Of a stretch of DNA of 64,000 nt, positions 28,722 through 63,560 are shown piece by piece. The position numbers were made by a program, and so were the translations under genes. A model generated the notes under the pieces. That model did no database searches, had not been told where the DNA came from, and saw nothing but the letters and a program-made list of their open reading frames with translations. The stretch is from Bdellovibrionales bacterium. GTDB taxonomy: Bacteria > Bdellovibrionota > Bdellovibrionia > Bdellovibrionales > CAYMLA01. Where the stretch lies: contig OZ244239.1 in NCBI GenBank assembly GCA_965217115.1, positions 384,001 through 448,000 on the forward strand, given 5' to 3'. Position 1 is the first letter of the stretch. Each line of letters starts with the position of its first letter.

Positions 28722-28856
28722 AACCCGTCGCCTGGGGGGAGGGGCTCTTTACTTTCACGCGCAGTTCTTTCGGTGCGATGCTCGCAAAGCGAGCGCCGCA
28801 GCCGCAAGCATGTCTGAGCATGAAAGCAAAGAGCCCCTCCCCCCAGCCGACAGGTT
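28722..28856 (-). repeat. Long hairpin element, stem type A
   Basis: 39-bp inverted repeat (4 mismatches) around gcgcagttc...gctcgc-aaa-gcgagc...atgtctgagc. Confidence 0.9.
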
Positions 28857-28883
28857 CACCAACGTGAGCATAAAAGCCCCCCA

Positions 28884-29546
28884 TCATGTTTGAGTAAAAA
28901 AAAACCCCAACTTAACCCCATCTTGCTCCCAAACACACCCGCATCCCAGTTGCCCCAAGGAGCTTTGGAGAGATTGTGATTCTCTAGATTGTGATTTTCC
29001 AGATTGTGATTTCCCAGATTGTAAGTCCACAGACTGCAGGCGAAACATCTCTAGCCCGCCACTTAATCTATCGTTCATCTCCCAGTCGCCCACCTCTATT
29101 TGTGAGAGAACTCTGATATCATAGATCGAAGAGATCGCCTTGTAGGTTGACTCTTTTGCCACCCATAGGGAACTGGCTGAAGGGGCCTCTCTGTGTTCTT
29201 TCTGCGAGTGGACGACCCTCTCTATATGTGAAGACTTCACTCTCCCTGTCTCCTCCATATCAAAACCCATCAACCCATCACCTTGATGACAGGCGTACCC
29301 CCCGGCTTTTTTACAATGGGACACCGATATTTGAAACCCCTCCACTCTAGGTCTCATGTTTAAATCCAAAAGTTCCTCTTCCCTTCTCTTATCCAGAGAA
29401 GACAACCCCGCTGTCTTGTTGATGTGACGCAGAATTCCCCCACGAATAAGGGAGCGGTGATTTTCACAATCGCTCGCCCACTTAGAGAGCACTTCAAAAT
29501 AAAGACCTGGAAGATCTAGGGCTTCACTGATTTTTTCTATCTTCAT
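28884..29546 (-). CDS. 4'-phosphopantetheinyl transferase (Sfp/EntD-like)
   Basis: ISVSH, GFDME, WVAKESTYKA motifs. Confidence 0.8.
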   Translation of the reverse strand: MKIEKISEALDLPGLYFEVLSKWASDCENHRSLIRGGILRHINKTAGLSSLDKRREEELLDLNMRPRVEGFQISVSHCKKAGGYACHQGDGLMGFDMEETGRVKSSHIERVVHSQKEHREAPSASSLWVAKESTYKAISSIYDIRVLSQIEVGDWEMNDRLSGGLEMFRLQSVDLQSGKSQSGKSQSRESQSLQSSLGQLGCGCVWEQDGVKLGFFFTQT

Positions 29547-31026
29547 TGGACACTCTCATCTCTTTAATGGCCTGATAAAAATCTTGGGCCAATTTATCTT
29601 GCGCAAAATGCTTGCCCTCTTTGGCGACCACACGTCCACGACTTAAAACCTTGGAGTGAGCACTCCCGTTTAAGGCATAGATCAGCGTTGAGAGTTTATC
29701 ACTATCACTGGACGCATCCATTAGGGGATGATTCACAACCACTCCTGATAACGGTCTTCCTTCACCCGCTGGTGCGTTTAAAACTTGGGCTATCCCCGCC
29801 GCTCTCTCCCCGCCGTTAAAAGCGAATAAAAAAACCTGCTCTCCACTTGAAAACTGTGTCTGCAAATTGTCAGAGCGCATTGGAGGGTTTACAGACGAGC
29901 GCGCCGATAAAACATTTCTCTTCTTATTATTCAACCTCGCCCCATAATCCAACCACCGAAGTTCTTCATAGGGATTCAAACCAATCTGGCTATCAGAACC
30001 CACTGCCCAACTTCCCCGGGCTTTTATATATTCAGAGATCGGAAAAAACCCATCGCCCAAATTCCCCTCCGTCGAAGGACAGAGAATCACATTCACATTT
30101 TTTTCTAAAACCCCATCAAACTCCTCTTTGGTCATGTGGGTGCTGTGAATAAAATTAACGCCGTGGTGGCCGTCATTTAAATGAACTTCGTCCAAAAACC
30201 ACTGGACAGGGCGCTTGCCGTAAAATTCCACGCAATCTTCAACCTCTTTGACCTGCTCAGCAATGTGCAAATGAAACGGTCGGTTCAGACAATGGGAGTA
30301 AATCTTTTTTATGTCTTCCCTATCAGCTGCACGTAGAGAGTGGACACCCATCCCTAAAAAAATCTGCTCCTCTTGATTGATAAGTTTTCCATACCCATCC
30401 ACCAAGTCTAAATACTCGCCCACATCTTCAAATAAAAAACGTCGCTGCTCTTGCAAACCCCTCTGTCCAAAATGACTTTGTTTATAGTAAACAGGAACCA
30501 GGGTCATTCCCATGCCCACTTCTCTGGCGGCCTCTATCAATATCTCTCCCAACAGAGTCGGTGTCCCATAGGGTTTCCCATCCAAGTTTTTATGTAAGTA
30601 ATGGAATTCCACCACATGACTGTAACCAGAACAGAGCATCTGTGAATACAGATAAGCCGCAACGGATTTCAAGGCTTCAGGGGAGATCTTTAATGCCACA
30701 CTGTACATCTTCTCTCGCCAAAACCAAAAATCATCATCCTCTTGATTCATCTTCAGAGAAACACTCTCCGCCAAACCAGCCATTCCATACTGAAAGGCGT
30801 GGGAGTGGGCATTGACTAAGCCCGGAACAAAATGACCTGGGATCGTCTCTTCTTCTTCATAATCCCATGCCGTCACACCCTGGGGATTCTCACTCACAGC
30901 GCAGGTCAACCCCTTCGTGTCTGTCAGAACGTAGTACGGAGAGAACCACCTCTTCTGTGTCACAGAAAAAAAAGCTTCAAACTTCCACTTTTTCTTTTTT
31001 AACACACCTCGAAGCCCCTTTGTCAC
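29524..31026 (-). CDS. hutF: Formimidoylglutamate deiminase
   Basis: NAHSHAFQ, EFHYLH, HSLRA, HIAEQ, CPSTEGNLGDG; start uncertain. Confidence 0.92.
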   Translation of the reverse strand: MTKGLRGVLKKKKWKFEAFFSVTQKRWFSPYYVLTDTKGLTCAVSENPQGVTAWDYEEEETIPGHFVPGLVNAHSHAFQYGMAGLAESVSLKMNQEDDDFWFWREKMYSVALKISPEALKSVAAYLYSQMLCSGYSHVVEFHYLHKNLDGKPYGTPTLLGEILIEAAREVGMGMTLVPVYYKQSHFGQRGLQEQRRFLFEDVGEYLDLVDGYGKLINQEEQIFLGMGVHSLRAADREDIKKIYSHCLNRPFHLHIAEQVKEVEDCVEFYGKRPVQWFLDEVHLNDGHHGVNFIHSTHMTKEEFDGVLEKNVNVILCPSTEGNLGDGFFPISEYIKARGSWAVGSDSQIGLNPYEELRWLDYGARLNNKKRNVLSARSSVNPPMRSDNLQTQFSSGEQVFLFAFNGGERAAGIAQVLNAPAGEGRPLSGVVVNHPLMDASSDSDKLSTLIYALNGSAHSKVLSRGRVVAKEGKHFAQDKLAQDFYQAIKEMRVSNEDRKNQ

Positions 31027-31029
31027 TTG

Positions 31030-31505
31030 CTTGCACTCTCTTTCTTATTTATTTGTTTGTTTCTTTGTTTTTTTGTTTCTTTGTTTCTTTGTTTCTTTGT
31101 TTTCTTATTTATTTATTTATTTGTTTTCTTGCTTGCTTGTTTTCTTCTTTGTTTTTTATTTGCTTACTTGTTTCTTGGCTTATTTATTTACTTGCTTTTT
31201 ATTTGCTTGTTTTTTATTTATTTCTTTGTTTTTTTGTTTCTTTGTTTCTTTACTTATTTGTTTATTTTTGTTTATTTATTTTCTTACTTATTTATTTACT
31301 TGTTTCTTTTTTTATTTGCTTGTTTCTTATTTGTTTCTTTATCTCTTTGTTTTTTTGTTTATTTGTTTATTTTTGTTTATTTATTTGCTTATTTATTTAC
31401 TTGTTTTTTGTTTCTTTATCTCTTTGTTTGCTTATTCATTTGCTTTCTTGTTTGCTTGTTTGTTTTTTATTTGCCTCTTTGTTTGCTTGTTTATTTGCTT
31501 TTTAT
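31030..31505. repeat. T-rich mosaic microsatellite
   Basis: Shuffled TTGT/TTAT/TTGC/TTCT/TTAC units over about 480 bp. Confidence 0.9.
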
Positions 31506-32335
31506 TGTTTGCTCTTTAATAAAGCGATCAACTCTGTAAACATTTCCTTTAATGGCTCACTGATAACCTCTGCCCGTTGCCTATCGTATCTCTTTTGATT
31601 GTCTTCCATATAAACTGATTGGGACATCTCCAATTGCAAACTGTGCACACCCGCATCTGGACGACCAAAAAACCGTGTGAAATGACCGCCCTTAAATGGT
31701 TTATTCACTCCCAAATCCCAAATAATTTCTCCGCTCTCCAAAACAGACTTCGCTTTAAGCAGAACTTCCTCAGCACAGGTTTTACCATCATTGTCTCCCA
31801 ACATAAGATCAGGAAAAATTTCTTCAGATATAGAGGGAATGAAATCTTTAATAGAATGGGCATCAAAGAAGAGAACTTGGGAAAAGTCTGATTGCAGATC
31901 TAATAGAATCTCCTCTATTTTTTGATAATACGGCAAGTAGTACTCATTGTAACGCCGTTCAATCTCACTCTCTCCGGGAGTTTGACCAACACGGTATAAC
32001 TCTTCACCTGAAAAACTTTTAACAGGAACCAGAGACGTCTCCGGTCGACCATCTTTGTACAAAGACTTGGATTTGGGGTCTCTATTTAAATCAATCACAT
32101 ACCGACTGTAATTTGCTTTTATCAGAGTGATTCCCAAACTTGAAACAAACCCATCATATAACTGATCCACAAACCAATCCGTATCTTCAGGATGATTGAC
32201 AACGCCCTCTCCATAGGAAGACTCCATCCCAGGGGGAAACATCGTTCCGCTATGGGGACTACTGATGAGAATAGGAACTCTCTTCTCTTTTTCTGGAGCA
32301 TTGACTTCAAAAACAGCATTCTTCATTCCGAACAA
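31502..32335 (-). CDS. hutG: N-formylglutamate amidohydrolase
   Basis: SSPHSG, DTDW, SRYVIDLNR, DAHS, PFKGG, LQLE. Confidence 0.92.
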   Translation of the reverse strand: MFGMKNAVFEVNAPEKEKRVPILISSPHSGTMFPPGMESSYGEGVVNHPEDTDWFVDQLYDGFVSSLGITLIKANYSRYVIDLNRDPKSKSLYKDGRPETSLVPVKSFSGEELYRVGQTPGESEIERRYNEYYLPYYQKIEEILLDLQSDFSQVLFFDAHSIKDFIPSISEEIFPDLMLGDNDGKTCAEEVLLKAKSVLESGEIIWDLGVNKPFKGGHFTRFFGRPDAGVHSLQLEMSQSVYMEDNQKRYDRQRAEVISEPLKEMFTELIALLKSKQ

Positions 32336-32379
32336 ATACCTTATATTCCTAAATATTTAAATCTAATTTTACCATTTTT

Positions 32380-32965
32380 TCCCCCAAATCCCTTCTCTCT
32401 CTCCCCCTAACCCCTTTTTCTCTCTCCCCCAAATCCCTTCTCTCTCCCCCAATCCCTTCTCTCTCCCCCAATCCCTTCTCTCTCCCCCAATCCCTTCTCT
32501 CTCCCCCAATCCCTTCTCTCTCCCCAAATCCCTTCTCTCCCCTAAATCCCTTCTCTCTCCCAAATCCCTTCTCTCTCCTAAATCCCTTCTCTCTCCTAAA
32601 TCCCTTCTCTCTCCTAAATCCCTTTCTCTCCCCTAAACCCTTTCTCTCCCCTAAACCCTTTCTCTCCCCCAAATCCCTTCTTTCCCCCAAATCCCTTCTT
32701 TCCCCTAAATCCCTTTCTCTCCCCTAAACCCTTTCTCTCCCCCAAATCCCTTCTTTCCCCCAAATCCCTTCTTTCCCCTAAATCCCTTTCTCTCCCCTAA
32801 ATCCCTTCTCTCCCCTAAATCCCTTCTCTCTCCCAAATCCCTTCTTTCCCCTAAATCCCTTCTTTCCCCTAAATCCCTTCTCCCCTCTAAATCCCTTCTT
32901 TCCCCTAAATCCCTTCTCTCCCCTAAACCCCTTTTTCTCCCCCCCCCCTTCCCCCCCTTAAATCC
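32380..32965. repeat. 17-19-bp minisatellite (aaatcccttctctcccct consensus), roughly 30 copies
   Basis: Seen directly; G-rich on the minus strand. Confidence 0.92.
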
Positions 32966-32982
32966 CCCACCAAAAAACACAC

Positions 32983-33128
32983 GCCTTAAACCAGTGTGCC
33001 TTTTAAATAGAACCCTATCCCCAAGCGCAGTTCTTTTGGCGCGATGCTCGCAAAGCGAGCGCCGCAGCCGAAAGCATGTTTGAGCATTGGGGATAGGGTT
33101 CTATTTAAAAGGCACACTGGTTTAAGGC
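32983..33128 (-). repeat. Long hairpin element, stem type B
   Basis: Perfect 42-bp inverted repeat around a core nearly identical to the one at 28759..28819. Confidence 0.92.
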
Positions 33129-33218
33129 ACACTGAGATTTAAGCCACCACAACTCAATTAATTAATTAATTAATTACTCAATCATCATCAATCAATTAAT
33201 TAATCACCCAATCCCACC

Positions 33219-34277
33219 CTAAGCCTTAACTCTCCAATACTGCTCTTCTATTCCCATAGAAAAAACAAGAGGATCACTCCCCTTCTGTCGATCTACAAAA
33301 TCAGATTTCCCCTTTATCCCCGCCCATTCCAAGTCCACCAGCACCTGCCCGATAACACCTCCGAGGGAGTTTCCTGGCCCTAAAATAATAACACAATCTG
33401 GATTGTACTCTTTAAGCCCCTTGGTGATGGCTTGGGTAAAATCATAGGGCTTATAAACTTGATGCCCCAGAGTGTAATCGTAAATAGCTTGGCCGCCAGA
33501 GCGATTCGATAGATAAAACTTCCACACATACCCTCGCCCATCTATAAGGTCACAGTCGCGATCAGGGGGGCCAAAAGACTCCACCCGAAGAGATGCAAAG
33601 GCCTTCTCTGAAACTTCCCGTAGCAAAGACGTGTGAAAAGCACCGTGATTAATTAATTGCAAAGGGTAGTTCTCGTTCTTAGGGAGATTTTTAAGAAGAA
33701 ACCCCATTCCCTCTTTGTCGGCACCGATAACAACGTATCCCCCTAGGAAAATCGAGATCTCAGCAAAACCAGATGTTCTATTGGCTTCTTCAATTAATTT
33801 AAGAACCTCTTCCCTCTTCTCTTCTTGGAGTTTCCAGTTTTCATCGACTAAGGGGTAAATAAGTTGACCACCAATAAGGCGCTCTTTCATCATCGACCCC
33901 ATCGTCTCAATCACTTCAAAACCCGCCATCGGATTAAGAACTTTTGCCAGGACACAGGCGCTGTACCAACCCATCGAGTTTCCAGTGATCGCCACTGGTT
34001 CGTACTTCTTAAAATTAATCTGTGAGTAATCAGCATAGGAGCAGGCGTAAATCAGAGAAGATGCATGTTCACCCTTGGTGTGTAGAGAGGGTTTGAATTT
34101 CTCCATTGAATCCAGTTCCGTGATCTTAGGTCTGCCGAGGTCCTGTCTCTTCCTATCAATCTCTTCTAAGAGAGATGTCACCTTCTGTCCCCGTCTCTGT
34201 AGATAACCTAAGGACTCCTTGGTGTAGGACCCCCGTCCTGGGCAAACAATCAGGGCTCGTTTTTTATTATCACTCAT
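33219..34277 (-). CDS. FabD-like acyltransferase (ACP S-malonyltransferase family)
   Basis: CPGRG, GNSMG nucleophile elbow, AFHT, LGPG. Confidence 0.8.
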   Translation of the reverse strand: MSDNKKRALIVCPGRGSYTKESLGYLQRRGQKVTSLLEEIDRKRQDLGRPKITELDSMEKFKPSLHTKGEHASSLIYACSYADYSQINFKKYEPVAITGNSMGWYSACVLAKVLNPMAGFEVIETMGSMMKERLIGGQLIYPLVDENWKLQEEKREEVLKLIEEANRTSGFAEISIFLGGYVVIGADKEGMGFLLKNLPKNENYPLQLINHGAFHTSLLREVSEKAFASLRVESFGPPDRDCDLIDGRGYVWKFYLSNRSGGQAIYDYTLGHQVYKPYDFTQAITKGLKEYNPDCVIILGPGNSLGGVIGQVLVDLEWAGIKGKSDFVDRQKGSDPLVFSMGIEEQYWRVKA

Positions 34278-36538: not shown

Positions 36539-36622
36539 GGCGAAAATTATCCTCCATCACTGTAGCCCAGACAACCAAAAATATAATGACCATTGAGTGT
36601 GTTTTTGTGGTACTGTCTCCCC

Positions 36623-37204: not shown

Positions 37205-37270
37205 GAGATAAAGGTTGATTTATTCTTATTTTAAGATAACTTCTCTGAGTTAAATTAAAACGAGGTAACA

Positions 37271-37453
37271 ATGCCACAGCCAAAAAGTAGAATAACACGT
37301 TCAAGAAGGGGTATGAGACGCTCCCATGATGGAATCTCTGCTGGAGCTTCTGTTAATTGCCCCAACTGTGGCGCTGTCGCCAGACCCCACAGAGTTTGTG
37401 GCAGTTGTGGACACTACAAGGGTCGAGAAATCATCACCCAAAAAGATTCATAG
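37271..37453 (+). CDS. rpmF: 50S ribosomal protein L32
   Basis: MPQPK...RRSH, CPNC, HRVC..CGHY. Confidence 0.97.
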   Translation: MPQPKSRITRSRRGMRRSHDGISAGASVNCPNCGAVARPHRVCGSCGHYKGREIITQKDS

Positions 37454-41988: not shown

Positions 41989-42779
41989 CAGTCGTTGAAA
42001 AAAAACCTCTCATGAAAATCCAGAACCTCTCCCTAAATTATAAAAACAGCTCTGCTTTTTCTAATATTAATCTAAATATTCTTCCCCAAGAAGTTCTTGC
42101 CCTCATCGGACCTTCTGGCTCTGGTAAATCTAGTTTTCTAAATTGTTTAAATCAACTCTTCCTCTCTGTCCCCTGTTGCACAGTTGAGGGAAGTATCGAG
42201 TTTGAAGGGCGAGTTATATTAGGGGGAGAGACCACTTCGGCTAAACTGAATCTACAGCATCTCAGGAGAAACATTGGTATGGTCTTTCAAAGACCCCATC
42301 CCTTTCCCAATTCTATTTACAAGAACATGTCCATCCCACTCAAGGAAGTTGGTATTAAGAGTAAAGATTCTATCGATGAAACAATCCATAGAACTTTCTC
42401 AGATGTTGGCCTGTGGGATGAACTAAAAGATCGTCTCCAATCTTCGGCCCTCGAACTCTCAGGAGGTCAGCAACAGAGACTCTGTATTGCCCGAGCCATT
42501 GCTCTTAAACCTAAGCTATTGCTGATGGATGAACCAACAAGTTCACTCGACCCCATCGCCGCGCAAACGATCGAGTCACTCATCACGGAACTCAAGAAAA
42601 AATATGCAGTCGTCATGGTCACACACAATCTTGCCCAAGCTAGACGTATCTCAGATAAATTGGCCCTCATCTACCCTATCAACGGAATAGGTCATTTGAT
42701 TGAATACGGTGAAACAGCCCATCTCTTTAAATCTCCACAGGAAGATCTCACTAAAGAGTATTTTTCAAGGGAACTTTAA
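41985..42779 (+). CDS. pstB: Phosphate ABC ATPase PstB
   Basis: GPSGSGKS, LSGGQQQRLCIARA, MDEPTSSLDP, VTHN. Confidence 0.92.
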   Translation: MTVVEKKPLMKIQNLSLNYKNSSAFSNINLNILPQEVLALIGPSGSGKSSFLNCLNQLFLSVPCCTVEGSIEFEGRVILGGETTSAKLNLQHLRRNIGMVFQRPHPFPNSIYKNMSIPLKEVGIKSKDSIDETIHRTFSDVGLWDELKDRLQSSALELSGGQQQRLCIARAIALKPKLLLMDEPTSSLDPIAAQTIESLITELKKKYAVVMVTHNLAQARRISDKLALIYPINGIGHLIEYGETAHLFKSPQEDLTKEYFSREL

Positions 42780-42783
42780 ACAT

Positions 42784-43491
42784 ATGAAAACTGTCAGTGT
42801 TATTTTCAGCACCCACAACGATGCTAAGAATGGGTTTCTCAAGAAAAGTCTCACCTCCCTATGTGATGAGTCCTCTTGTGAAATCATTGTCGTCAATAAA
42901 AGTGACGAGATCCCCGAACTCTTAAACACACTTCCTGTGAAACTGATCTCCTCCAAAGACCCATCACGGGCAGTGAGACAAAATCTTGGTATTAAAGCCG
43001 CTCAAGGTGATATTATTCTGCTCCACCATCCACGCAGTGTTCTAGAGAGAGGAGCGATTCAGGAACTGACCGAAGCCATGGAAAATCAGATGATCACATG
43101 GGGCTGCTTCACCCATGGGTTTAACATAAAACATCCCCTTCTGCAGTTCACCTCATGGTATTCTAATAAAGTTCGCTGCGATCAAAAGAGCATTGCTTAT
43201 TTAGACCATTGTGTCTTCTTCCGACGCAGCCTACTTGAGAATGACCCCACCCCTGTCCCCGAGGTGGATATCTTTGAAGACACAGAGCTGAGTTTAAAAC
43301 TTAAGAAACTCGGCAAACCGGTACGACTCTCTAAACAGTCTACAACCTCTGCCATTCGTTTTCAAAAGAACGGTGTTTATAGGCAATCTCTTCTCAATCA
43401 AGTGCTTAAGGTGGGTTATGGGTTGGGGGTTTCTGATGGGTGGATGAATCGTCTCTACGAGAAAGGCCTCTCTCTTAATTCTAAATATTAG
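42784..43491 (+). CDS. GT2 glycosyltransferase resembling the TIGR04283 family
   Basis: RAVRQNLG, WGCF, FED, TSAIRF..NG, YGLGVS pattern, matched by eye. Confidence 0.65.
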   Translation: MKTVSVIFSTHNDAKNGFLKKSLTSLCDESSCEIIVVNKSDEIPELLNTLPVKLISSKDPSRAVRQNLGIKAAQGDIILLHHPRSVLERGAIQELTEAMENQMITWGCFTHGFNIKHPLLQFTSWYSNKVRCDQKSIAYLDHCVFFRRSLLENDPTPVPEVDIFEDTELSLKLKKLGKPVRLSKQSTTSAIRFQKNGVYRQSLLNQVLKVGYGLGVSDGWMNRLYEKGLSLNSKY

Positions 43492-43990
43492 GAGCCGTTT
43501 TTAAAATGCCTCTTTATTCTTTAGCTCAGACATTCGGTTGGCAGCGGCGCTCGCTTAGAATATCGGTCGGCTGAAGCGACCGGTATTCTAGGCGAGCATC
43601 GCACCAATCCGAACTCGCTAAAGAACAAAGAGGCATTTTAAAAACTCTCTTTGAACATCTGCGACTGACTGGGCACAACGGGGAAGGGGGATAACGGAGA
43701 GCTTAGAATATCGGTCGGCTGAAGCGCCTGGTATTCTAGGCGAGCATCGCACCAACCGAACTCGCTAAAGAACAAAGAGGCATTTTAAAAACTCTCTTTG
43801 AACATCTGCGACTGACTGGGCACAACGGGGAAGGGGGATAACGGAGAGCTTAGAATATCGGTCGGCTGAAGCGGCTGGTATTCTAGGCGAGCATCGCACC
43901 AACCGAACTCGCTAAAGAACAAAGAGGCATTTTAAAAACTCTCTTTGAACATCTGCGATGGGCTGGGAACAACGGAGGGGGTAGGATGTC
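43492..43990 (+). repeat. Hairpin element stem type C (full copy 43497..43645) plus two tandem right-half copies (period 147-148 bp)
   Basis: 29-bp inverted repeat gtttttaaaatgcctctt...; units restart at 43553, 43701 and 43848. Confidence 0.92.
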
Positions 43991-44012
43991 GGTGCGATCC
44001 ATCGTTAGGACT

Positions 44013-44144: not shown

Positions 44145-44678
44145 TTAATAAACTTTTTTAAAGTAATAGCAATGTCCATAAATATTAGAATTTATCTCTG
44201 GATAACGAGAAACCCGACCCACAAAAAAATCGCTATATTTTTTTAATGAGAAGATTGGAATTCCATCTGTAGATGCTAAAGAGCCCTCCCGTTCCTCGGT
44301 GGTAAAGGTCTGATTATCAGGGCTCCTCATAATTTGTACTATAGCATCCTTAAAATTTGACAAATCATTATCATAATAGTTCGCTGGTACTTTTTTCGCG
44401 TGAAAAAACATCATTTGATGTGCTGTCTTTGGGGGGAAATCGCCACCATTAGCTGGGTCTATATTTATGCGAGATGCTAATAGGCCAGCTATTGGCTTGC
44501 TTGGCGCTTTTGCTGCGTAACATCTTCCAGACCACCAACCAAAAGTTTCTTCTTCTGTAGGTAGGGTTCCTTGGTCATACATCTCTCCGAGTTCTTCAAA
44601 ATTAGTGGGAAACTCTGATGCTCCATGGACATTGCTAAATGCTAGGCATGCTAAGATAACAATAGATAGAAACTTCAT
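44145..44678 (-). CDS. Secreted hypothetical protein, paralogue A
   Basis: Signal peptide, GWWSGRCY and CYYFKKVY; AAGGAG RBS. Confidence 0.85.
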   Translation of the reverse strand: MKFLSIVILACLAFSNVHGASEFPTNFEELGEMYDQGTLPTEEETFGWWSGRCYAAKAPSKPIAGLLASRINIDPANGGDFPPKTAHQMMFFHAKKVPANYYDNDLSNFKDAIVQIMRSPDNQTFTTEEREGSLASTDGIPIFSLKKYSDFFVGRVSRYPEINSNIYGHCYYFKKVY

Positions 44679-44900
44679 TGCAACTCCTTATTTATATTGC
44701 CTATTTGGGCAATGGTTTTATTACGAGCTTTACCGCCCATAAAGTTATTGCGCTTTATTTAAAACACACAGTCTATTTAACAGTTTTTCTATGAATGTCT
44801 ATAATTATAACAATAAATTGACTCGTTCCTAAAAAACCTGCGGTGCGGGAAACTAGGTAAAAACAAGTGTTTAAACAAGGCATTTGATTCTAAATGTTCG

Positions 44901-45245
44901 AAGCCGTTTTTAAAATGCCTCTTTGTTCTTTAGCTCAGACATTCGGTTGGCAGCGGCGCTCGCCTAGAATATCGGTCGCTGGAGCGACCGGTATTCTGAG
45001 CGAGCATCGCACCAATCCGAACTCGCTAAAGAACAAAGAGGCATTTTAAAAACTCTCTTTGAACATCTGCGATGGGCTGGGAACAACGGAGAGCTTAGAA
45101 TATCGGTCGCTGGGGCGATCGGTATTCTAGGCGAGCATTGCACCAACCGAACTCGCTAAAGAACAGAGAGGTATTTTAAAAACTCTCTTTGAACATCTGC
45201 GATGGGCTGGGAACAACGGAGAGCTTAGAATATCGGTCGCTGGAG
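44901..45245 (+). repeat. Hairpin element stem type C (full copy 44906..45053) plus partial tandem copies (period about 130 bp)
   Basis: Same sequence family as 43497..43645. Confidence 0.92.
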
Positions 45246-45324
45246 GGGATAAGACAATTGAAGATGTAAAAAAAATACCGGAGAAAATAAAGTATTATAA
45301 CCATAGCGATTCATCGTTAGGACT

Positions 45325-45359
45325 AAAAAAAATGCCCTCGAGTGAATATCGAAGGCATC
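45325..45359 (-). terminator. Intrinsic terminator of cassette gene B
   Basis: Same hairpin as 44013..44048. Confidence 0.75.
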
Positions 45360-45453
45360 TTAATTTTTAACTTGGGCCTTTTATTAACCTGTCCCATTTT
45401 TGGGGTACAGATCATTAAATTATAGCTTTTTTTAGATAGGAAAGTTAATACAC

Positions 45454-46002
45454 TTAATAAACTTTTTTAAAGAAATAGCAATTTGAATAAACATCACCAG
45501 CGCGCCATCTGTGCTTACCATTGGATGTAGAACCATCTTGATTAACAATAGCTTGGCCTATAAAATAATTTTCATATTTTCTTAGTGCAAAATCTAAATT
45601 AAGTGGTGTATATGCATATAAAGAATTGTCTCTTTTTTTAACAATAATTCTTCTGTTTTCTTCAGTGTTTATAAGTTCTTCTACCTCAACCTTAAATTCT
45701 AATAAATTATTGTCAAAGTAGTCAGCTGCTTGTTTTGATCCATGACGAAGAAAGACCATTTGATGCGTCTTTGAAGGTTCATCTGTAATCATCCTAGATA
45801 CTAATAGGTTAGGTAATGGATTACTTGGCATTAATACATCGTAACATCTTCCAGACCACCAACCAAAAGTTTCTTCTTTTGTAGGCAGGGTTCCTTGGTC
45901 AAACATCTCTCCCAGTTCTTCAAAATCAGTGGAAAGCTCTGATGCTCCATGGACACTGCTAAATGCTAGGCATGATAAGATAACAATAGATAGAAACTTC
46001 AT
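45454..46002 (-). CDS. Secreted hypothetical protein, paralogue B
   Basis: Near-identical N-terminus to A, CYFFKKVY end. Confidence 0.85.
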   Translation of the reverse strand: MKFLSIVILSCLAFSSVHGASELSTDFEELGEMFDQGTLPTKEETFGWWSGRCYDVLMPSNPLPNLLVSRMITDEPSKTHQMVFLRHGSKQAADYFDNNLLEFKVEVEELINTEENRRIIVKKRDNSLYAYTPLNLDFALRKYENYFIGQAIVNQDGSTSNGKHRWRAGDVYSNCYFFKKVY

Positions 46003-46224
46003 TGCAACTCCTTATTTATATTGCCTATTTGGGCAATGGTTTTATTACGAGCTTTACCGCCCATAAAGTTATTGCGCTTTATTTAAAACACACAGTCTAT
46101 TTAACAGTTTTTCTATGAATGTCTATAATTATAACAATAAATTGACTCGTTCCTAAAAAACCTGCGGTGCGGAAAACTAGGTAAAAACAAATATTTAACC
46201 AAGGCCTTTGATTCTAAATGTTAG

Positions 46225-46470
46225 ACGCCGTTTTTAAAATGACTCTTTATTCTTTAGCTCAGACATTCGGTTGGCAGCGGCGCTCGCTTAGAATATCGGT
46301 CGCTAAAGCGACCGGTATTCTAAGTGAGCATCGCACCAATCCGAACTCGCTAAAGAACAAAGAGGCATTTTAAAAACTCTCTTTGAACATCTGCGACTGA
46401 CTGGGCACAACGGAGAAGGGGGACAACGGAGGGGGTAGAATATCGGTCGCTGGGGGGACTGGTATTCTAA
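46225..46470 (+). repeat. Hairpin element stem type C (full copy 46230..46377) plus a degenerate partial copy
   Basis: Same family; followed by a poly-G/GAAA purine tract to about 46530. Confidence 0.9.
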
Positions 46471-55929: not shown

Positions 55930-55931
55930 AC

Positions 55932-56336: not shown

Positions 56337-56346
56337 CTCGACCTCC

Positions 56347-58181: not shown

Positions 58182-58454
58182 TCCTTCTGATAAGATATTG
58201 AAATATCATAACCATCAAACCCCATCTAGCGCTCCGCCCTATCTCTGTCGTCTTCCTCGACCTAGGGCTGACACTCATAATTCAATCAACACCCCGCCTC
58301 TTTTTCAACCTTCTTTTCAAGGCTCCCCATGAACATCGGTGCAACTATCTAATATTAGTTGAAACCACCCCATTCATCAACAGAAGATATCCCTGGAGAA
58401 GAGCCCATTGTCCACAAAACAACGCAGCGCGTTGCTCTGCGGTCCTCCCCTGGA

Positions 58455-59129: not shown

Positions 59130-59207
59130 ATCCTACATTAAGCCGACAGCCTAGTCCAGAAGATCGTATTGTAAATTCTAAAGACTTTCTAAAATACTGA
59201 CCGATGA

Positions 59208-60824
59208 CTAAGGTTTTAACTTGTTTTTGTACTTATAAGCATGATTAGAGATCAAGCTCGATACTCTTCGATATTCACTCAATAAATCTAAGTGAATAGA
59301 GCTTGTGTTGATCGACTCCCGCATTCCTTGATTCAAGCGCTCTATGTGGGATTGACGTAAATTATTTTCTAGTTTACGCAATGCTCGTTTTGAATTAATA
59401 ACATTCTCAGCTAATTCGTGACGAATAAAACAATTCACACCTAAGGCGCATACATTTAACATCTCTGTGTGCATTTTCTTAATCTCTCTCCAGCCCTCTT
59501 CACTAAACTCTAGTTTGAGATAATTCTTTTTCCGTGAAAGGTCTAACACAGTGTGGTCGATAATATCCGCAGCGCTTTCCAAATCACTGGCAAACATAAT
59601 CATCTCCATAACAGATTTGTTCACTTCATCATTTTGATCGACCCCCTCTTCCCCAAGAAGAAAGTCTTTTATCTCGCGGAATAAATGATCGACCATATTA
59701 TCCCGTTCTTCTATGGACTCTCTAATTTCTTGATCATCTTCTTCAAAAAGACGAATAGAATCTCTAGCCATACTCATGACAATATCCGCCATGCGCATAA
59801 TCTCACGACTGGCATAAGTTTCAGCTATTGCAGAGGAACTATAGGTTTCTCTTCTTAAGAACTTAGCTCCAAACACTTTATCACCACTTCCCTTTGGAAA
59901 TAAAAATTCAATGAAACGGGCGACCCATCTAATGAACGGGAAAAACAAAATCGCCGAAACCACGTTCAACACAAGGTGTGCATTCGCAATAGCTCGCACT
60001 TCGTTCACCGAAAAAGACATCACCCAATTCACCCCAGAGATTGCAAAATAAGAAAATATCAGTACGCTCACCGCTTTGTAGAAAAAATGAGCCCAAGCCA
60101 CTTGCCTACCGATATAATTGCCACCAATGGATGCCATCAAGGCCGTCGATGTCGTACCGATATTGGCTCCCAAGACCCAAAAAAAAGCGTCGTACATAGA
60201 AATCATTCCCGCCTGCGTAAAACCCATAGCCAAACCAATGGTCACAGCACTGCTGTGCACAAAACCACTAAAGCATGTCGCTACAAGCAACGAAGCCCAA
60301 GGGTTGCCTGAGAGATTTTTAAATATCTCGGTCACAAAAGGAACTTTAGCAATAGCGTTTGCCCCTAAACCAATAAGTTCCATACCAAAAAACAACAGGC
60401 CAAAACCCATGAGAACACCCATGACTTTTTTTATAAAATCTTTCTTGGCGATAAAATAAACACTAAAGGCCCCGATAAATACAAGTAAGCCCCATTGAGC
60501 AATATTGAAACTGATCAGTTGCACCGTCAACGTCGAGCCAACCGCAGAGCCTATAATGACTCCCATCACTTCCGACAAAGTGATCACTCCTGCCGACCCC
60601 AAACCTACTAACATCGACGTCACAGCTCCAGAGCTCTGCAAAAGAACCGTTAACGCCGCTCCAACTAAAATTGCTAAAAATGAATTTGTTGATAATTTAT
60701 TCAGAAGTAATCGTACACGATTAATCATCAATTTTTCTAAAAAATGACTACACAGGCTCATACCATACATAAAAAAAGCAACACCGCCTAAGAGAAGCAC
60801 CAAATCATTATGTTGCAACATCAA
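59208..60824 (-). CDS. Na+/phosphate cotransporter with PhoU-like C-terminus
   Basis: LQSSGA and VHSSA repeats, GANIGT, PhoU-like helical tail. Confidence 0.9.
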   Translation of the reverse strand: MMLQHNDLVLLLGGVAFFMYGMSLCSHFLEKLMINRVRLLLNKLSTNSFLAILVGAALTVLLQSSGAVTSMLVGLGSAGVITLSEVMGVIIGSAVGSTLTVQLISFNIAQWGLLVFIGAFSVYFIAKKDFIKKVMGVLMGFGLLFFGMELIGLGANAIAKVPFVTEIFKNLSGNPWASLLVATCFSGFVHSSAVTIGLAMGFTQAGMISMYDAFFWVLGANIGTTSTALMASIGGNYIGRQVAWAHFFYKAVSVLIFSYFAISGVNWVMSFSVNEVRAIANAHLVLNVVSAILFFPFIRWVARFIEFLFPKGSGDKVFGAKFLRRETYSSSAIAETYASREIMRMADIVMSMARDSIRLFEEDDQEIRESIEERDNMVDHLFREIKDFLLGEEGVDQNDEVNKSVMEMIMFASDLESAADIIDHTVLDLSRKKNYLKLEFSEEGWREIKKMHTEMLNVCALGVNCFIRHELAENVINSKRALRKLENNLRQSHIERLNQGMRESINTSSIHLDLLSEYRRVSSLISNHAYKYKNKLKP

Positions 60825-60852
60825 TCACTTCCTTCATCTTCATTGCTAAGAA

Positions 60853-61356
60853 CTAGAAATACTGCTCTTTAATCCCTTTGGCAATAGCTGAAAAAAAATC
60901 TGTATAGGATTCCCCAAGAACAAACATGGGAATAAAATAAAGGCTTACCATCCAAAAAAATGCAACGGATACCAATTTGTACAGTAGCCACTTAATAGAT
61001 AACATTTTCAATTTCGATACTAACAATGACCGTATTACTATGAAACTAAGCCAAAAAGCCCCCTGGGCTATAAAGAAATTCTCCCAATTAGAAAATTTAG
61101 AGAGCTCTTCCACAGATTCGAGCACTTTGTCATCAGTGGCGATAGCTATTATCTTTTGCATCTCCTCATTATTAGAAAATCTTTTGACTTTCTCTGCCAT
61201 TTTCTGGCTCGCCCACTCTATCTTTTGAATTTGCTCATAGTCTAAATCTTTAACGACGTTCAACCACATCTTATCACCCTCTTTTAATTTCCTGGCCTCT
61301 ATTGCTCTACCTGGCAATTTTAGACGCCATACGCTACTCTCGTCTAGCAATAACAT
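60853..61356 (-). CDS. Hypothetical membrane protein
   Basis: Two C-terminal hydrophobic helices; start uncertain. Confidence 0.55.
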   Translation of the reverse strand: MLLLDESSVWRLKLPGRAIEARKLKEGDKMWLNVVKDLDYEQIQKIEWASQKMAEKVKRFSNNEEMQKIIAIATDDKVLESVEELSKFSNWENFFIAQGAFWLSFIVIRSLLVSKLKMLSIKWLLYKLVSVAFFWMVSLYFIPMFVLGESYTDFFSAIAKGIKEQYF

Positions 61357-61477
61357 CTAAGGCTAACTGACTCAGGCATTCAAGACAACTCTTTCTCCCT
61401 CAATCAATGAATTCCTTTACTGTTTGCCGAGGACTTTGTATGCTCAGAAAATAAATTTTCTCTAAGGACTTTTTTAA

Positions 61478-62134
61478 GTGAAGAGTTTCGTATTTGGCCA
61501 TACCTACAACTCCCTTCCCATCATCGCCCACGAATTTGGCAGTCAGGGACCGAGTGTTCTTATTCTTGCTGGAGTTCACGGAGATGAAAGCGAGGGCGTC
61601 ATTGCAGCCCATGGCTTGCTCGATAGCTTCACACAGAGTTTCCCCTATAAGCTCCACCTCACGATCATTCCCGCTTTCAACCTAGATGGCGTCATCGCCG
61701 GCCAAAGGAAAAATGCCAACGGTGTCGATCTCAACCGCAACCTCCCAACTTCAGATTGGTCCCCAGAAATAGCTTCTGAACGCTACCATCCTGGAGGTGA
61801 AGCGGGGAGTGAACCTGAGACTCAGGCCCTTCTGAGGTTCTTGGATAGATGCAAGCCTCGTTTTATCATCTCTCTCCACTCGTGGAAACCCATGCTCAAT
61901 ATCAATGGAAAATGTGATCAGGAGGCCCAGATCATCTCTGAATTGACAGGTTACGAAATCAAAGAGAGTATCGGCTATCCCACGCCTGGATGCCTGGGCA
62001 CCTACTCTGGCTTGGAACGAAACACCCCCACACTCACCTATGAAATCGAGCGAGGACTCTCTACTGAGGAGACCCTGCGAGTACACCCTCCTGCTATATT
62101 AGAAGCTTTAAAAATAACGGAATCCATCACTTAA
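61478..62134 (+). CDS. mpaA: Murein tripeptide amidase (M14, MpaA-like)
   Basis: HGDE, NANGVDLNRN, SEPET, SLH, GYPTPG. Confidence 0.85.
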   Translation: MKSFVFGHTYNSLPIIAHEFGSQGPSVLILAGVHGDESEGVIAAHGLLDSFTQSFPYKLHLTIIPAFNLDGVIAGQRKNANGVDLNRNLPTSDWSPEIASERYHPGGEAGSEPETQALLRFLDRCKPRFIISLHSWKPMLNINGKCDQEAQIISELTGYEIKESIGYPTPGCLGTYSGLERNTPTLTYEIERGLSTEETLRVHPPAILEALKITESIT

Positions 62135-62148
62135 AATAAGGACAAAAC

Positions 62149-62958
62149 GTGAACTCTCTACAAGACACAATCGAAACAGCTTTTAACAAAGAGTCACTCT
62201 CCCCCCAAGATATAGAATCTGTCCAATCAGTCTTGGCAGCTTTAAATAATGGAACTCTGCGTGTTTGTGAAAAAAGAGATGACCAGTGGACTATCAACGA
62301 GTGGACTAAAAAGGCGATCTTACTTTATTTTCGTATACAGAAAATGACTATTATCCAAGCTGGAGATCTGCAGTTCTTTGATAAAATCCCTTTAAAGAGA
62401 TGGACTGAGCATGACGGTGTTCGTGTCGCCCCCCATGCCTTGGCCCGTTATGGCAGTCATGTGGAGGCTGGAGCTGTGCTTATGCCGTCCTATGTCAACA
62501 TCGGAGCCTATGTGGGAAGTGGCAGTCTTATTGATACTTGGGCCACGATAGGCTCTTGCGCCCAAGTTGGCAAAAACGTTCACATCTCTGGAGGGGTTGG
62601 TTTAGGAGGAGTCATGGAACCCCTGCAAGCCAGACCTGTCATCATTGAAGACGATGTTTTTATTGGCAGCCGCTGTATCATTGTCGAAGGAACTATTATT
62701 GAATCAAAAGCCGTCTTAGGAGCGGGGGTCACAATAACAGCCAGCACTAAGATTATTGACGTTACAAAGAGCGAACCCGAAATCCATCAAGGCCGTGTGC
62801 CCGCCAACTCCGTTGTGATTCCTGGAGTCACCAACAAAAAATTTCCCTCTGGAGAATACGGCGTCTCTGCCGCTCTCATCATTGGTCAGCGCAAGGCGAG
62901 CACAGATATTAAAACATCTTTAAACAATGCCCTCAGAGAGCATAATGTCTCTGTTTAG
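62149..62958 (+). CDS. dapD: Tetrahydrodipicolinate N-succinyltransferase
   Basis: KKAILLYF, MPSYVNIGA, GSCAQVG, hexapeptide repeats. Confidence 0.95.
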   Translation: MNSLQDTIETAFNKESLSPQDIESVQSVLAALNNGTLRVCEKRDDQWTINEWTKKAILLYFRIQKMTIIQAGDLQFFDKIPLKRWTEHDGVRVAPHALARYGSHVEAGAVLMPSYVNIGAYVGSGSLIDTWATIGSCAQVGKNVHISGGVGLGGVMEPLQARPVIIEDDVFIGSRCIIVEGTIIESKAVLGAGVTITASTKIIDVTKSEPEIHQGRVPANSVVIPGVTNKKFPSGEYGVSAALIIGQRKASTDIKTSLNNALREHNVSV

Positions 62959-63131
62959 CAAGCCCCTGTAAGCACTGCCTTGTGAGTCTTTAAAAAGGTC
63001 TTCTTTGAGGACAGATTTAAATAGCTTCCCTTTTTTTATTCCACTCTTTAGTTGTCTTGCTATATAGGGCCTTTTTCTGGTATGCATGTCTAAGTTCAAA
63101 CGATCTACAAAGTCCTCTTTTGAACACAAAT

Positions 63132-63218
63132 GCGCCAGTGCTGGAATTGGTAGACAGGCTGGTTTGAGGGATCAGTGCTCGTAAGGGCGTGGAGGTTCAA
63201 GTCCTCTCTGGCGCACCA
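63132..63218 (+). tRNA. tRNA-Leu(GAG)
   Basis: GCGCCAG/CTGGCGC acceptor stem, CTGGT-TTGAGGG-ATCAG anticodon arm, long variable arm, GTTCAAG, CCA end. Confidence 0.96.
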
Positions 63219-63408
63219 TTCATCAAGCTATTCGAAATGAAGAGGCACAAATAGTTACCTTCAGGAGACCAACCAAAACCGATCTCCTTTATTCTTCTGC
63301 CTGTGGCAGTCGTTAAGCCGTACAACTAAACTACTGCCCCAGGAAAAGCCTCTTTTAAAGGTTCTTTATGACAAACAATAGTGGAGCCAGTTTTTTCTGA
63401 TGAGCTGT

Positions 63409-63560
63409 TTTTTTTCTAGAGTCTCTCCCAAAAGAATCCAGCCCTTTTCTTGCTCAAACATCCGTTTGTCACCTTCCATTGCAGAAAAATGCAATGGAAG
63501 TCGCCAAGCCAAACTCGCCGAAAAGAACTGGATTCTTTTGGGAGAGACTCTAGAAAAAAA
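63409..63560 (+). repeat. Long hairpin element, stem type D
   Basis: Perfect 33-bp inverted repeat around gctcaaacat...cttccattgca/tgcaatggaag...aaactcgc. Confidence 0.85.

What the first reader, a model, noticed from the sequence alone, without database searches (positions are those of the whole stretch)
28722..63560. Dispersed hairpin family: conserved core inside four unrelated self-complementary stems
Seen: six complete elements at 28722-28856 and 32983-33128 (minus orientation) and at 43497-43645, 44906-45053, 46230-46377 and 63409-63560 (plus orientation). All read long stem - GCTCARACAT - branch hairpin - AACT(G)CGC - long stem. The outer stems (29-42 bp) fall into four unrelated sequences yet each pairs almost perfectly. 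The apical hairpin also varies (a 3-nt loop, an added TAGAATATCGGTCG stem, or CTTCCATTGCA). Inference: structure plus a small asymmetric loop is conserved rather than the terminal sequence, which is unlike a standard MITE with fixed transposase-binding ends. This fits a structured RNA motif or an ssDNA recombination/nicking substrate. No cognate enzyme is visible in the window.
Basis: partly seen in the sequence, partly recalled or inferred. Interest (0 to 1): 0.85.

Follow-up and report, generated by a model that had tools for sequence, protein, structure and literature searches.

The report
Bdellovibrio-group hairpin repeat with conserved loop
The six hairpins are real members of a roughly 100-copy family of palindromic repeats found only in Bdellovibrio-like bacteria, unusual because a small lopsided internal loop, not the ends, is what stays constant; what recognises that loop is still unknown.

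Summary
All six elements fold as near-perfect rods (z -14 to -17), and a covariance model finds exactly these six in the window. The genome holds 106 sites.

The family occurs in 19 of 150 sampled genomes of the same order. In a scan of 185,579 species, confirmed hits came only from Bdellovibrionales-type records.

- **Stems:** they covary massively, with 38 of 42 pairs changed on both sides.
- **Loops:** the strands 5'-CUCRRACAK / 3'-RAACUS(N)G persist between genomes whose TrpRS is 32-36% identical.
- **Known families:** no Rfam family matches.
- **Enzymes:** no Y1/RAYT, IS110, TnpB or integron integrase is present.

The elements behave as DNA repeats. They show bursts, tandem arrays, partial copies, a flipped core and presence/absence between congeners. 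One window copy rides inside a MITE with terminal inverted repeats and 8-bp target duplications.

My best reading is a new ERIC/Correia/REP-like repeat family recognised through its folded loop. A 3'-UTR RNA role remains a live rival.

The scan had noted this family before in this genome and a look-alike hairpin repeat in another Bdellovibrio-like genome.

The parts
28722..28856 (-). Type C hairpin copy 1 (3' loop AACTGCGC). It starts 43 nt behind the stop of the same-sense ORF 28884-29546, between convergent genes.
28600..28721 (-). Purine-only (G/A) simple-sequence tail on the 3' side of copy 1.
32983..33128 (-). Type C hairpin copy 2, behind the same-sense ORF 33219-34277 and ahead of ORF 32349-32690.
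32870..32982 (-). G-run/purine tail on the 3' side of copy 2.
43475..43684 (+). Type A copy 1. The last codons and stop of the glycosyltransferase ORF 42700-43491 run into the left end. The hairpin is 43497-43645, with an extra apical stem, followed by the tail CTGCGACTGACTGGGCACAACGGGG.
43685..43993 (+). Two tandem partial copies (3' half of the hairpin plus tail, 147-bp period).
44884..45240 (+). Type A copy 2 (hairpin 44906-45053), with a decayed copy of the upstream gene's last codons, the tail and one partial copy.
46208..46420 (+). Type A copy 3 (hairpin 46230-46377) with tail. It is the end of the 1324-bp tandem unit.
44145..46002 (-). Two paralogous signal-peptide ORFs (44145-44678 and 45454-46002) lying antisense between the type A copies. 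Each has its own intrinsic terminator. Neither has a Pfam match.
63409..63560 (+). Type B hairpin, one of about 40 near-identical copies in the genome.
63364..63821 (+). Composite MITE that carries the type B hairpin. Its terminal inverted repeats read GGTTCTTTATGACAAACAATAGTGGA ... TCCACTATTTATCACAAAGAACC. It lies 145 nt downstream of tRNA-Leu (63132-63218).

Best explanation
The six hairpins belong to an interspersed palindromic repeat family restricted to Bdellovibrionales. It is of the same general kind as ERIC, Correia and REP elements.

**Unit.** Each unit is a rod of about 105-150 nt with three parts:
- an outer stem of 20-45 bp whose sequence is free as long as it pairs;
- an asymmetric internal loop, 5'-(C)UCRRACAK on one strand and 3'-RAACUS(N)(G) on the other, closed by a covarying C-G or U-A pair;
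- an inner hairpin of variable sequence and length.

**Shown.**
- The family multiplies as DNA, in bursts of near-identical copies.
- It hitch-hikes in a transposase-type MITE with terminal inverted repeats (type B).
- It amplifies locally in tandem, taking the end of the neighbouring gene along (type A arrays).
- It differs in presence between species of one genus.

**Inferred.**
- The constant loop is the docking or cutting site of a trans-acting factor that reads the folded form (extruded or single-stranded DNA, or the transcript). This would explain why only pairing is kept in the stems.
- New stem variants arise by drift followed by arm-to-arm correction (template switching within the palindrome).
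- The hairpins stall replication. That would explain the tandem arrays, the partial copies, the (GGGAACAGCG)n purine/G-run minisatellites on their 3' side in this genome, and the build-up of foreign genes beside them.
- In this genome the old type A copies are fixed directly behind stop codons, so they are probably co-transcribed as 3'-UTR hairpins.
For: **Copy number and spread.**
- 106 sites in 2.17 Mb: 66 type A/C and 40 type B.
- 8 of 61 and 19 of 150 sampled genomes of the order carry it, unevenly by family: f5 10/31, f10 2/31, f12 2/30, f2 0/26.
- Five further genomes hold 22-82 matches each.
- In the 185,579-species scan, 37 of the 80 fetched loci scored with the model, and all 37 are titled Bdellovibrionales, Bdellovibrionaceae, Pseudobdellovibrionaceae or Oligoflexia. 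None of the loci titled with other taxa scored.

**Behaviour as DNA.**
- Subfamilies with constant stems are dispersed in G061 and G064.
- Type B sits in a MITE with terminal inverted repeats and clean 8-bp target duplications.
- Tandem units of 169, 187, 273 and 1324 bp include the 3' end of the upstream gene. Arrays with 154-, 213- and 258-bp periods occur in other species.
- At 529 kb the core is inverted relative to its flanks.
- In G126 two inverted copies plus 880 bp lie between convergent genes that are 38 bp apart in its congener G130, which has no copy there.
- In G061/G064 only 1 of 40 copies abuts a stop codon, and 12 of the 34 with both neighbours called lie in divergent gaps.
- A.C mismatches are as common as G.U in the stems: 138 against 91, and 59 against 63.

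**Constraint on the loop.**
- Among 16 type A loci the loops are 91-96% identical and the arms 58.5%.
- The loops are kept between genomes with 32-36% TrpRS identity.
- The closing pair covaries: GC...GC becomes GT...AC.
Against: - **No mobilising enzyme.** G000 has no Y1/RAYT, IS110 or TnpB and no multi-copy transposase ORF. It has only XerC, XerD and one phage-type integrase, and homologues of that integrase are missing from the carriers G005 and G011.
- **Y1 does not track the element.** G061-G064, which are rich in copies, also lack Y1, while 116 of 150 genomes of the order have it.
- **Termini undefined.** No target duplication or defined end was found for the hairpin unit itself.
- **Not simple decay.** In this genome the old type A copies keep their cores at 88-96% identity while the arms have drifted to 58.5%. 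This asks for host-level selection or gene conversion.
- **Position rule.** About 20 of 21 type A loci start 8-35 nt behind a same-sense stop codon. Six of 16 loci in relatives lie within 50 nt of one. This looks like a function in the transcript or a targeting rule that I cannot explain.
- **Strand hint.** Next to the loop, only G.U is seen (24 G.U and 0 A.C at the closing pair), which hints that the sense strand is the one that folds.
Confidence: 0.45

Rival explanations
1. It is a cis-acting structured RNA in the 3' untranslated region. The hairpin is transcribed with the upstream gene. The conserved loop is bound or cut by a conserved RNA-binding protein or ribonuclease, as in an RNase III-type processing signal. 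This leaves a protective 3' hairpin or insulates convergent genes. The DNA repeat behaviour would then be secondary.
For: - In G000 about 20 of 21 type A loci begin 8-35 nt after a same-sense stop codon.
- The same position is seen behind rpoD, serS, fliA and other genes in relatives, at 6 of 16 loci within 50 nt.
- Covariation is very strong.
- Beside the loop, only G.U pairs occur in the sense strand: 24, 7, 7 and 6 G.U against 0 A.C at four pairs.
- The loop is conserved over deep divergence.
- Cores are held while arms drift within one genome.
Against: - In G061 and G064 there is no link to stop codons (1 of 40 copies), and 12 of 34 copies sit in divergent promoter gaps.
- Only 19 of 150 genomes of the order have it, and the one same-family genome has none.
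- Overall, A.C mismatches equal or exceed G.U.
- The two fixed C.A mismatches of type B would be wobble pairs only in the antisense strand.
- There is no U-tract and no sigma-70-like promoter per unit in the arrays.
- No Rfam family matches.
Confidence: 0.3
2. It is a folded single-stranded DNA recombination site, like an integron attC site or the forked hairpin used by XerCD with CTX phage. The site would delimit gene cassettes that are inserted and excised at the hairpin.
For: - Arrays occur in which unrelated accessory genes lie between copies of one locus-specific hairpin: 475-483 kb, 527-534 kb and the window at 43-46 kb.
- Earlier notes describe the same at 913-920 kb.
- A similar pattern is seen in G061.
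- The site is defined by structure and has an unpaired bubble.
- XerC and XerD are present.
Against: - No integron integrase: the best integron models score far below their cut-offs.
- The layout is the reverse of attC, with a conserved centre and variable outer boxes.
- The cassettes lie antisense and carry their own terminators.
- The repeats also copy the end of the upstream gene, and many arrays have no cassette at all. Both fit tandem duplication.
- The two window cassettes are paralogues from a 1324-bp duplication.
Confidence: 0.1
3. They are ordinary transcription terminators or chance palindromes that merely look alike.
For: The elements lie at gene ends, mostly in convergent gaps.
Against: - No T-tract follows the stem. 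The scan finds no terminator-like site in two arrays, while canonical terminators exist nearby.
- None of 200 shuffles folds as well.
- The identical loop strands recur in 106 sites here and in many genomes.
Confidence: 0.03

Closest known systems
ERIC/IRU (enterobacterial repetitive intergenic consensus) elements
   Same: - They are imperfect palindromes of about 127 bp, intergenic and often co-transcribed at 3' ends.
- Copy number differs greatly between related genera, they are restricted to a clade, and extra internal segments occur in some copies.
- Orientation-dependent effects on mRNA decay have been reported.

Source: passages read in PMC3184786. The internal insertions are recalled, not read.
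   Different: - There is no sequence relation.
- According to that review, ERIC-type copies have terminal inverted repeats, target duplications and TA at both ends. Here the termini vary and the internal loop is the constant part.
- The host clade is different.
- Tandem arrays and G-run tails are not ERIC features.
Correia repeat-enclosed elements (CREE/NEMIS) of Neisseria
   Same: - They are 100-157-bp inverted-repeat elements with a conserved core and hundreds of copies.
- They show mobility between strains.
- As RNA, the hairpin is bound or cut by RNase III.

Source: abstract of PMC2649163 seen in the listing, and passages of PMC3184786.
   Different: - CREE have fixed 26-bp terminal repeats and a TA duplication (recalled).
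- No IHF site or end promoters were found here.
- Here the stems covary freely, and the family spans an order rather than a genus.
REP/REPIN elements with RAYT (Y1 HUH) transposases
   Same: - They are hairpin-forming extragenic repeats clustered in arrays at gene ends.
- They are thought to be recognised as folded single strands by a domesticated enzyme.
- A short tag is conserved across wide distances.

Source: abstract of PMC3733652 in the listing.
   Different: - REPs are 20-40 bp with a GTAG or CGTC tag at one end. Here the unit is 105-150 nt with an internal 8 x 5-6 nt loop.
- No Y1 gene is present in G000 or in G061-G064. Y1 genes are common in element-free relatives.
Integron attC sites and clusters of attC sites without an integrase
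   Same: - The site is defined by structure, with unpaired bases.
- Sequence varies between sites.
- Arrays separate accessory genes.
   Different: - attC has conserved outer boxes and a variable centre, which is the reverse of this element.
- No integron integrase is present.
- The cassettes here lie antisense with their own terminators, and the repeats include copies of the upstream gene's end.

Membership tests
REP/REPIN-RAYT | Short (20-40 bp) palindromic unit with a GTAG or CGTC tag at one end | tested here: not met
   The alignments show units of 105-150 nt whose ends vary. The constant part is the internal loop (GCTCARACAT / CCGAACTCG).
REP/REPIN-RAYT | A RAYT (Y1 HUH) gene in the same genome | tested here: not met
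   PF01797 gives 0 matches in G000 (6 control genomes matched). It gives 0 matches in G061-G064. It is present in 116 of 150 genomes of the order regardless of the element.
MITE (hairpin unit itself) | Conserved terminal inverted repeats shared with an autonomous insertion sequence | tested here: not met
   The outer arms are 58.5% identical between loci while the loops are 91-96% identical. No multi-copy transposase ORF is present.
MITE (hairpin unit itself) | Target-site duplication at the ends | tested here: inconclusive
   The flanks of 18 G064 copies show only T-runs and A-runs that continue the stem. No clear direct repeat is visible.
MITE (carrier of type B) | Terminal inverted repeats plus target-site duplication | tested here: met
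   Both ends were found for 23 copies of 212-522 bp, and many have clean 8-bp duplications. The window copy spans 63364-63821.
Integron attC | An integron integrase gene in the genome | tested here: not met
   Three tyrosine recombinases are present: XerC-like, XerD-like and one phage-type. The integron models score 46-121 bits against cut-offs of 265 and 435.
Integron attC | Conserved outer R''/R' boxes around a variable centre | tested here: not met
   The layout is the reverse: a conserved centre with variable outer arms.
Described RNA family (Rfam 15) | A match at or above a family's gathering score | tested here: not met
   There are 0 matches in the window. Only sub-threshold matches to generic miRNA-type hairpins appear, for example 43 bits against a gathering score of 84.
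Intrinsic terminator | GC-rich stem followed by a T/U tract | tested here: not met
   There are 0 terminator-like sites in the arrays L005 and L165. No T-run follows the stems.
Structured RNA (generic) | Compensatory base-pair changes | tested here: met
   38 of 42 pairs changed on both sides, and 0 of 500 shuffles reach the observed values. A DNA palindrome would give the same result.
Structured RNA (generic) | Discrete transcript | not testable with these tools
   No RNA run is listed for this organism.
ERIC/Correia-type interspersed palindromes | Imperfect palindrome of 100-150 bp, intergenic, multi-copy and restricted to a clade | tested here: met
ERIC/Correia-type interspersed palindromes | Sequence homology to ERIC or CREE consensus | not testable with these tools
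   No library of such repeats (ISfinder or REP collections) is held. Nothing recalled resembles the core.

The most novel reading that the evidence does not exclude
The constant lopsided loop may be the recognition site of an undiscovered structure-reading enzyme of Bdellovibrionales. This could be a new kind of hairpin-specific transposase or nickase, or an RNA-processing factor unrelated to Y1/RAYT, IS110, TnpB or integron integrases. It would copy or cut the folded element and, as a side effect, seed cassette-like arrays of foreign genes behind housekeeping genes. Look-alike 'inside-out' hairpin repeats noted by this scan in Omnitrophota and Moranbacteria would then point to a wider, unrecognised class.
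Probability: 0.25. Interest if true: 0.8.

Novelty: new variant of a known kind. Interest (0 to 1): 0.55.

Why it matters
Interspersed palindromes such as REP, ERIC and Correia elements shape gene expression and genome plasticity, yet how most of them move is unknown. This family offers an unusually clean handle on that question:
- a 9 + 6 nt loop held constant across an order while everything around it covaries;
- about 100 copies per 2-Mb genome;
- genomes with and without it in the same genus.

That makes the responsible factor findable by phylogenetic profiling. In this genome the elements also mark the sites where tandem arrays, G-run minisatellites and accessory genes for secreted proteins accumulate, so they probably drive local genome change in these predatory bacteria.

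If instead the loop is an RNA processing signal, it would be a new 3'-UTR element for a poorly studied phylum.

Tried and rejected
- **RNA evidence:** no RNA holder is listed for the organism.
- **Laying contigs of four DNA runs of one sample:**
  - The short-read contigs simply break at the repeats.
  - Most joints come from paralogous copies.
  - One contig (depth 2.5, run X4) skips 28743-28877 and has 36 other letters there. It is too weak to count as an empty site.
- **Viral contigs:** 16 pattern matches, and 0 confirmed by the model.
- **Enzyme searches in G000:**
  - Y1_Tnp, IS110 and the TnpB zinc ribbon: none.
  - IS91 Y2: none, but the control genomes were silent too, so this is uninformative.
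  - The single reverse transcriptase is a retron/Abi-like gene in a defence islet, with no link to the elements.
  - The self-BLAST of all ORFs of 90 aa or more found only spurious ORFs across type B and no transposase family.
- **Co-occurrence:** phage-type integrase homologues occur in 42 of 61 genomes and are missing from the carriers G005 and G011. Y1 does not track the element.
- **Positional conservation:** no element lies next to trpS in four other carriers. Only this one locus was tried.
- **The type B MITE:** it was not found in 300 other genomes of the order, apart from one 34-nt match, so no autonomous parent was identified.
- **Promoters:** no sigma-70-like promoter per array unit. 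Sigma-54-like spacing in the left end was checked by eye and does not fit consistently.
- **Known RNA motifs:** K-turn, sarcin-ricin/loop E and UAA/GAN readings of the loop were tried by eye against recalled consensus sequences, and none fits.
- **G-run tail:** it is not a family feature. It was absent from 39 copies in other species.
- **Earlier notes:** the look-up by sequence found nothing.

Full report
**1. Observation**

- Each folds as a single rod with MFE between -80.7 and -107.9 kcal/mol and z-scores of -13.75 to -16.99. None of 200 shuffles folds as well.
- The exact motif GCTCARACAT occurs six times in the window, once per element.
- A covariance model built later finds these six sites in the window and no others.

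**2. Anatomy**

From the outside in, a unit has four parts.
- **Outer stem:** 20-45 bp.
- **Closing pair:** a C-G pair that covaries to U-A in some loci (GCTCAGACAT...AACTCGC against GTTCAGACAT...AACTCAC).
- **Internal loop:** 5'-UCARACAU(K) on one strand, facing 5'-(R)AACUC on the other. Type C copies and G126 have AACUGC or AACUCC instead.
- **Inner hairpin:** bulged and of free length. The forms seen are a 3-nt loop, an added 21-bp stem in the three window copies at 43-46 kb, a different stem in type B, and only about 18 nt in one G005 copy.

In this genome most type A copies extend further.
- The left end TTGATTTGGGCAAA pairs with TTTGAAATC, leaving a GG(G) bulge.
- The right end carries an unpaired tail CTGCG..TGACTGGGAACARCGGGG.
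- 74 of the 90 genomic occurrences of GGGAACARCG lie within 400 nt downstream of a same-strand element.
- The tail is usually followed by purine/G-run minisatellites such as (GGGGGACAGCGA)n. In 43 of 66 type A/C copies there are four or more G3+ runs in the next 120 nt, against 2% of random windows.
- This tail is special to this lineage. It was not seen beside 39 copies from other species.

**3. Size and spread of the family**

- A regular-expression count gave 101 copies.
- Model R1 (25 representatives, 42 pairs) gave 140 matches, which reduce to 106 sites once reverse-strand echoes are removed. They divide into 66 type A/C and 40 type B.
- Among relatives, 8 of 61 genomes and 19 of 150 genomes of the order have matches, G000 included. 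By family the tallies are f5 10/31, f7 1/5, f8 1/3, f9 1/7, f10 2/31, f11 1/1, f12 2/30 and f2 0/26. The one same-family genome has none. These scans scored at most 26-64 candidates per genome, so the counts are lower bounds.
About a thousand chance matches are expected for that pattern by my own arithmetic. Of the 80 loci fetched, 37 scored with R1, and all 37 carry Bdellovibrionales, Bdellovibrionaceae, Pseudobdellovibrionaceae or Oligoflexia titles. None of the loci titled with other taxa (Streptomyces, Rhizobium, Listeria, Babeliales and others) scored.
- Five of those genomes hold 22-82 matches each.
- Viral contigs gave 16 pattern matches and no model match.
- Rfam has no such family.

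**4. What is conserved**

- Within G000, 28 of 34 predicted pairs show changes on both sides.
- Across species, 38 of 42 pairs do. 91.6% of cells are paired, against 60.5% (sd 0.8) in shuffles and 38-48% when partners are slid, and 0 of 500 shuffles reach any observed measure. That alignment was fitted to the model, and its loops were partly fixed by the search pattern.
- The 19 copies found by the model alone are not biased by the pattern. They also keep CUCRRACA(K) and (R)AACU(S).
- Among 16 type A loci of G000, the outer arms are 58.5% identical pairwise, the loop strands 91-96% and the inner hairpin 88-93%.
- TrpRS of G000 is only 32-36% identical to that of four other carriers. The loop has therefore survived very deep divergence, or it has moved between lineages.

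**5. Behaviour as DNA**

(a) *Bursts.* Type B has about 40 near-identical copies. G061 and G064 have dispersed subfamilies with constant stems.

(b) *Hitch-hiking.* Every type B hairpin sits at the same place inside a composite element.
- The element is bounded by GGTTCTTTATGA...TCACAAAGAACC. Both ends were found for 23 copies of 212-522 bp, many with clean 8-bp target duplications.
- The window copy spans 63364-63821.
- This carrier was not found in 300 other genomes of the order.

(c) *Local tandem amplification.*
- Units of 169 bp (six copies, 351 kb), 187 bp and 273 bp, and the 1324-bp unit in the window, repeat the hairpin together with the last codons of the upstream gene. The junctions lie at short microhomologies.
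- Arrays with periods of 154, 213 and 258 bp occur in other species.

(d) *Flipped core.* At 529 kb four copies have their core inverted relative to the flanks.

(e) *Presence and absence within a genus.* G126 has two inverted copies bracketing 880 bp of AT-rich non-coding DNA between convergent genes. In G130 those genes are 38 bp apart, and no copy is present.

(f) *Cassette-like islets.* Unrelated accessory genes lie between copies of one locus-specific hairpin at 475-483 kb and 527-534 kb, and in the window. They encode LRR, ankyrin, FG-GAP and secreted proteins; the domain names are my reading of the translations and were not checked against Pfam. Earlier notes describe the same at 913-920 kb.

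**6. Position**

- In G000 the first copy of about 20 of 21 type A loci starts 8-35 nt after the stop codon of a same-sense gene, and the tail side is far from the next gene.
- In the window the last codons and stop of the glycosyltransferase ORF lie inside the repeated unit.
- Six of 16 loci in relatives lie within 50 nt behind rpoD, serS, fliA, spoVR-like and other genes; these names are my reading of the translations.
- The rule is not general. In G061 and G064 only 1 of 40 copies is within 60 nt of an upstream same-sense stop. For the 34 copies with both neighbours called, the classes are 12 co-directional sense, 7 co-directional antisense, 12 divergent and 3 convergent.

**7. RNA or DNA?**

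- No RNA run exists for this organism.
- Stem mismatches give no strand signal overall. In G000 there are 91 G.T against 138 A.C, inflated by two fixed C.A mismatches of type B. Across species there are 63 against 59.
- At four pairs next to the loop, only G.U occurs (24, 7, 7 and 6, with no A.C), which hints that the sense strand folds.
- The arrays carry no sigma-70-like promoter per unit and no terminator-like site. Canonical terminators exist beside them.

**8. Enzymes**

- G000 is 99.4% complete in one contig.
- It lacks Y1/RAYT, IS110 and TnpB. The IS91 search was uninformative because the controls were silent.
- Its tyrosine recombinases are XerC-like, XerD-like and one phage-type integrase. 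Homologues of that integrase occur in 42 of 61 relatives and are missing from the carriers G005 and G011.
- The one reverse transcriptase is a retron/Abi-like defence gene.
- No ORF family is multi-copy except artefacts across type B.
- Y1 genes are common in the order (116 of 150 genomes) but absent from the copy-rich genomes G000 and G061-G064. The REP-RAYT model therefore fails.

**9. Reading**

The weight of evidence is patchy distribution, bursts, hitch-hiking, congener polymorphism, no general link to transcription units, and symmetrical mismatch spectra. Together these make this a family of selfish or semi-domesticated palindromic DNA repeats of the ERIC/Correia/REP kind (PMC3184786, passages read; PMC2649163 and PMC3733652, abstracts in the listings).

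It is unusual because conservation is inside-out.
- I infer that a trans-acting factor reads the loop on the folded strand.
- I also infer that the palindrome's arms are kept matched by arm-to-arm template switching. That mechanism is known for quasipalindromes (recalled, no paper read).
- I further infer that the arrays, partial copies, G-run tails and neighbouring foreign DNA are consequences of replication trouble at the hairpins.
- None of these three steps is shown.

The main rival is a 3'-UTR RNA signal. It is kept alive by the stop-codon rule in G000, by the G.U pairs next to the loop, and by cores that stay intact while arms drift.

An attC-like recombination site is the weaker rival. 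No integron integrase is present, the layout is reversed, and the cassettes have their own terminators.

**10. Relation to earlier notes**

Notes e1-2388045, e1-2388046 and e1-2388047 describe the 913-920-kb array of this genome. Note e1-2429716 describes a tandem hairpin-repeat pair which, by its offset, lies near the type B pair I found at 1.972 Mb. I saw both places in my own catalogues.

Note e1-5014959 reports a look-alike element in another Bdellovibrio-like genome. Notes e1-4980406 and e1-4579837 report inside-out hairpin repeats in Omnitrophota and Moranbacteria. I did not test those.

Noticed in passing
window 63364-63821; G000 genome-wide: The type B hairpin is a passenger in a composite MITE with terminal inverted repeats GGTTCTTTATGA... 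and 8-bp target duplications. Both ends were found for 23 copies of 212-522 bp. The ends and the 8-bp duplication recall ISL3-type elements (recalled, untested). No parent insertion sequence was found in this genome or in 300 relatives.
   Followed up: partly
window 63132-63218 and G000 179.7, 789.5, 813.1 and 1629.2 kb: 5 of 40 type B copies lie 76-211 nt downstream of a same-strand tRNA gene, although the genome has only 37 tRNA genes.
   Followed up: partly
G000 genome-wide: The sense strand of type B lies on the lagging strand in 29 of 38 copies (binomial p 0.0017), while 58% of genes are on the leading strand. Type A shows no such bias, at 38 of 65. This is unexplained.
   Followed up: partly
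window 28600-28721, 32870-32982; G000 1814.9, 1665.1 and 881.7 kb and other places: Purine-only and G-run minisatellites, such as (GGGGGACAGCGA)n, lie on the 3' side of type A/C copies. On the sense strand they could form G-quadruplexes. On the antisense transcript they would be C-rich and G-poor.
   Followed up: partly
window 44145-44678 and 45454-46002: Two paralogous ORFs of about 180 aa with signal peptides and no Pfam match. Further paralogues lie at G000 753 kb and 1561 kb, away from any hairpin.
   Followed up: no
L038 (G000 1,867,139-1,870,675): A 315-aa reverse transcriptase lies with an upstream HTH gene and a downstream membrane protein, next to a fragment that looks like a restriction enzyme. 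It looks like a retron/Abi-type defence module.
   Followed up: no
order-wide: Weak Y1_Tnp (PF01797) matches in open frames of 180-260 aa are very common in this order. They occur in 116 of 150 genomes, with up to 27 or more per genome. This suggests a large family of RAYT-like genes unrelated to the hairpin studied here.
   Followed up: no
L229 3990-5330 (G126) against G130:C33: Two inverted hairpins bracket 880 bp of AT-rich non-coding DNA between convergent genes. In the congener those genes are 38 bp apart.
   Followed up: partly
L020 (G007): One copy lies about 100 nt upstream of the RNase P RNA gene, on the opposite strand.
   Followed up: no
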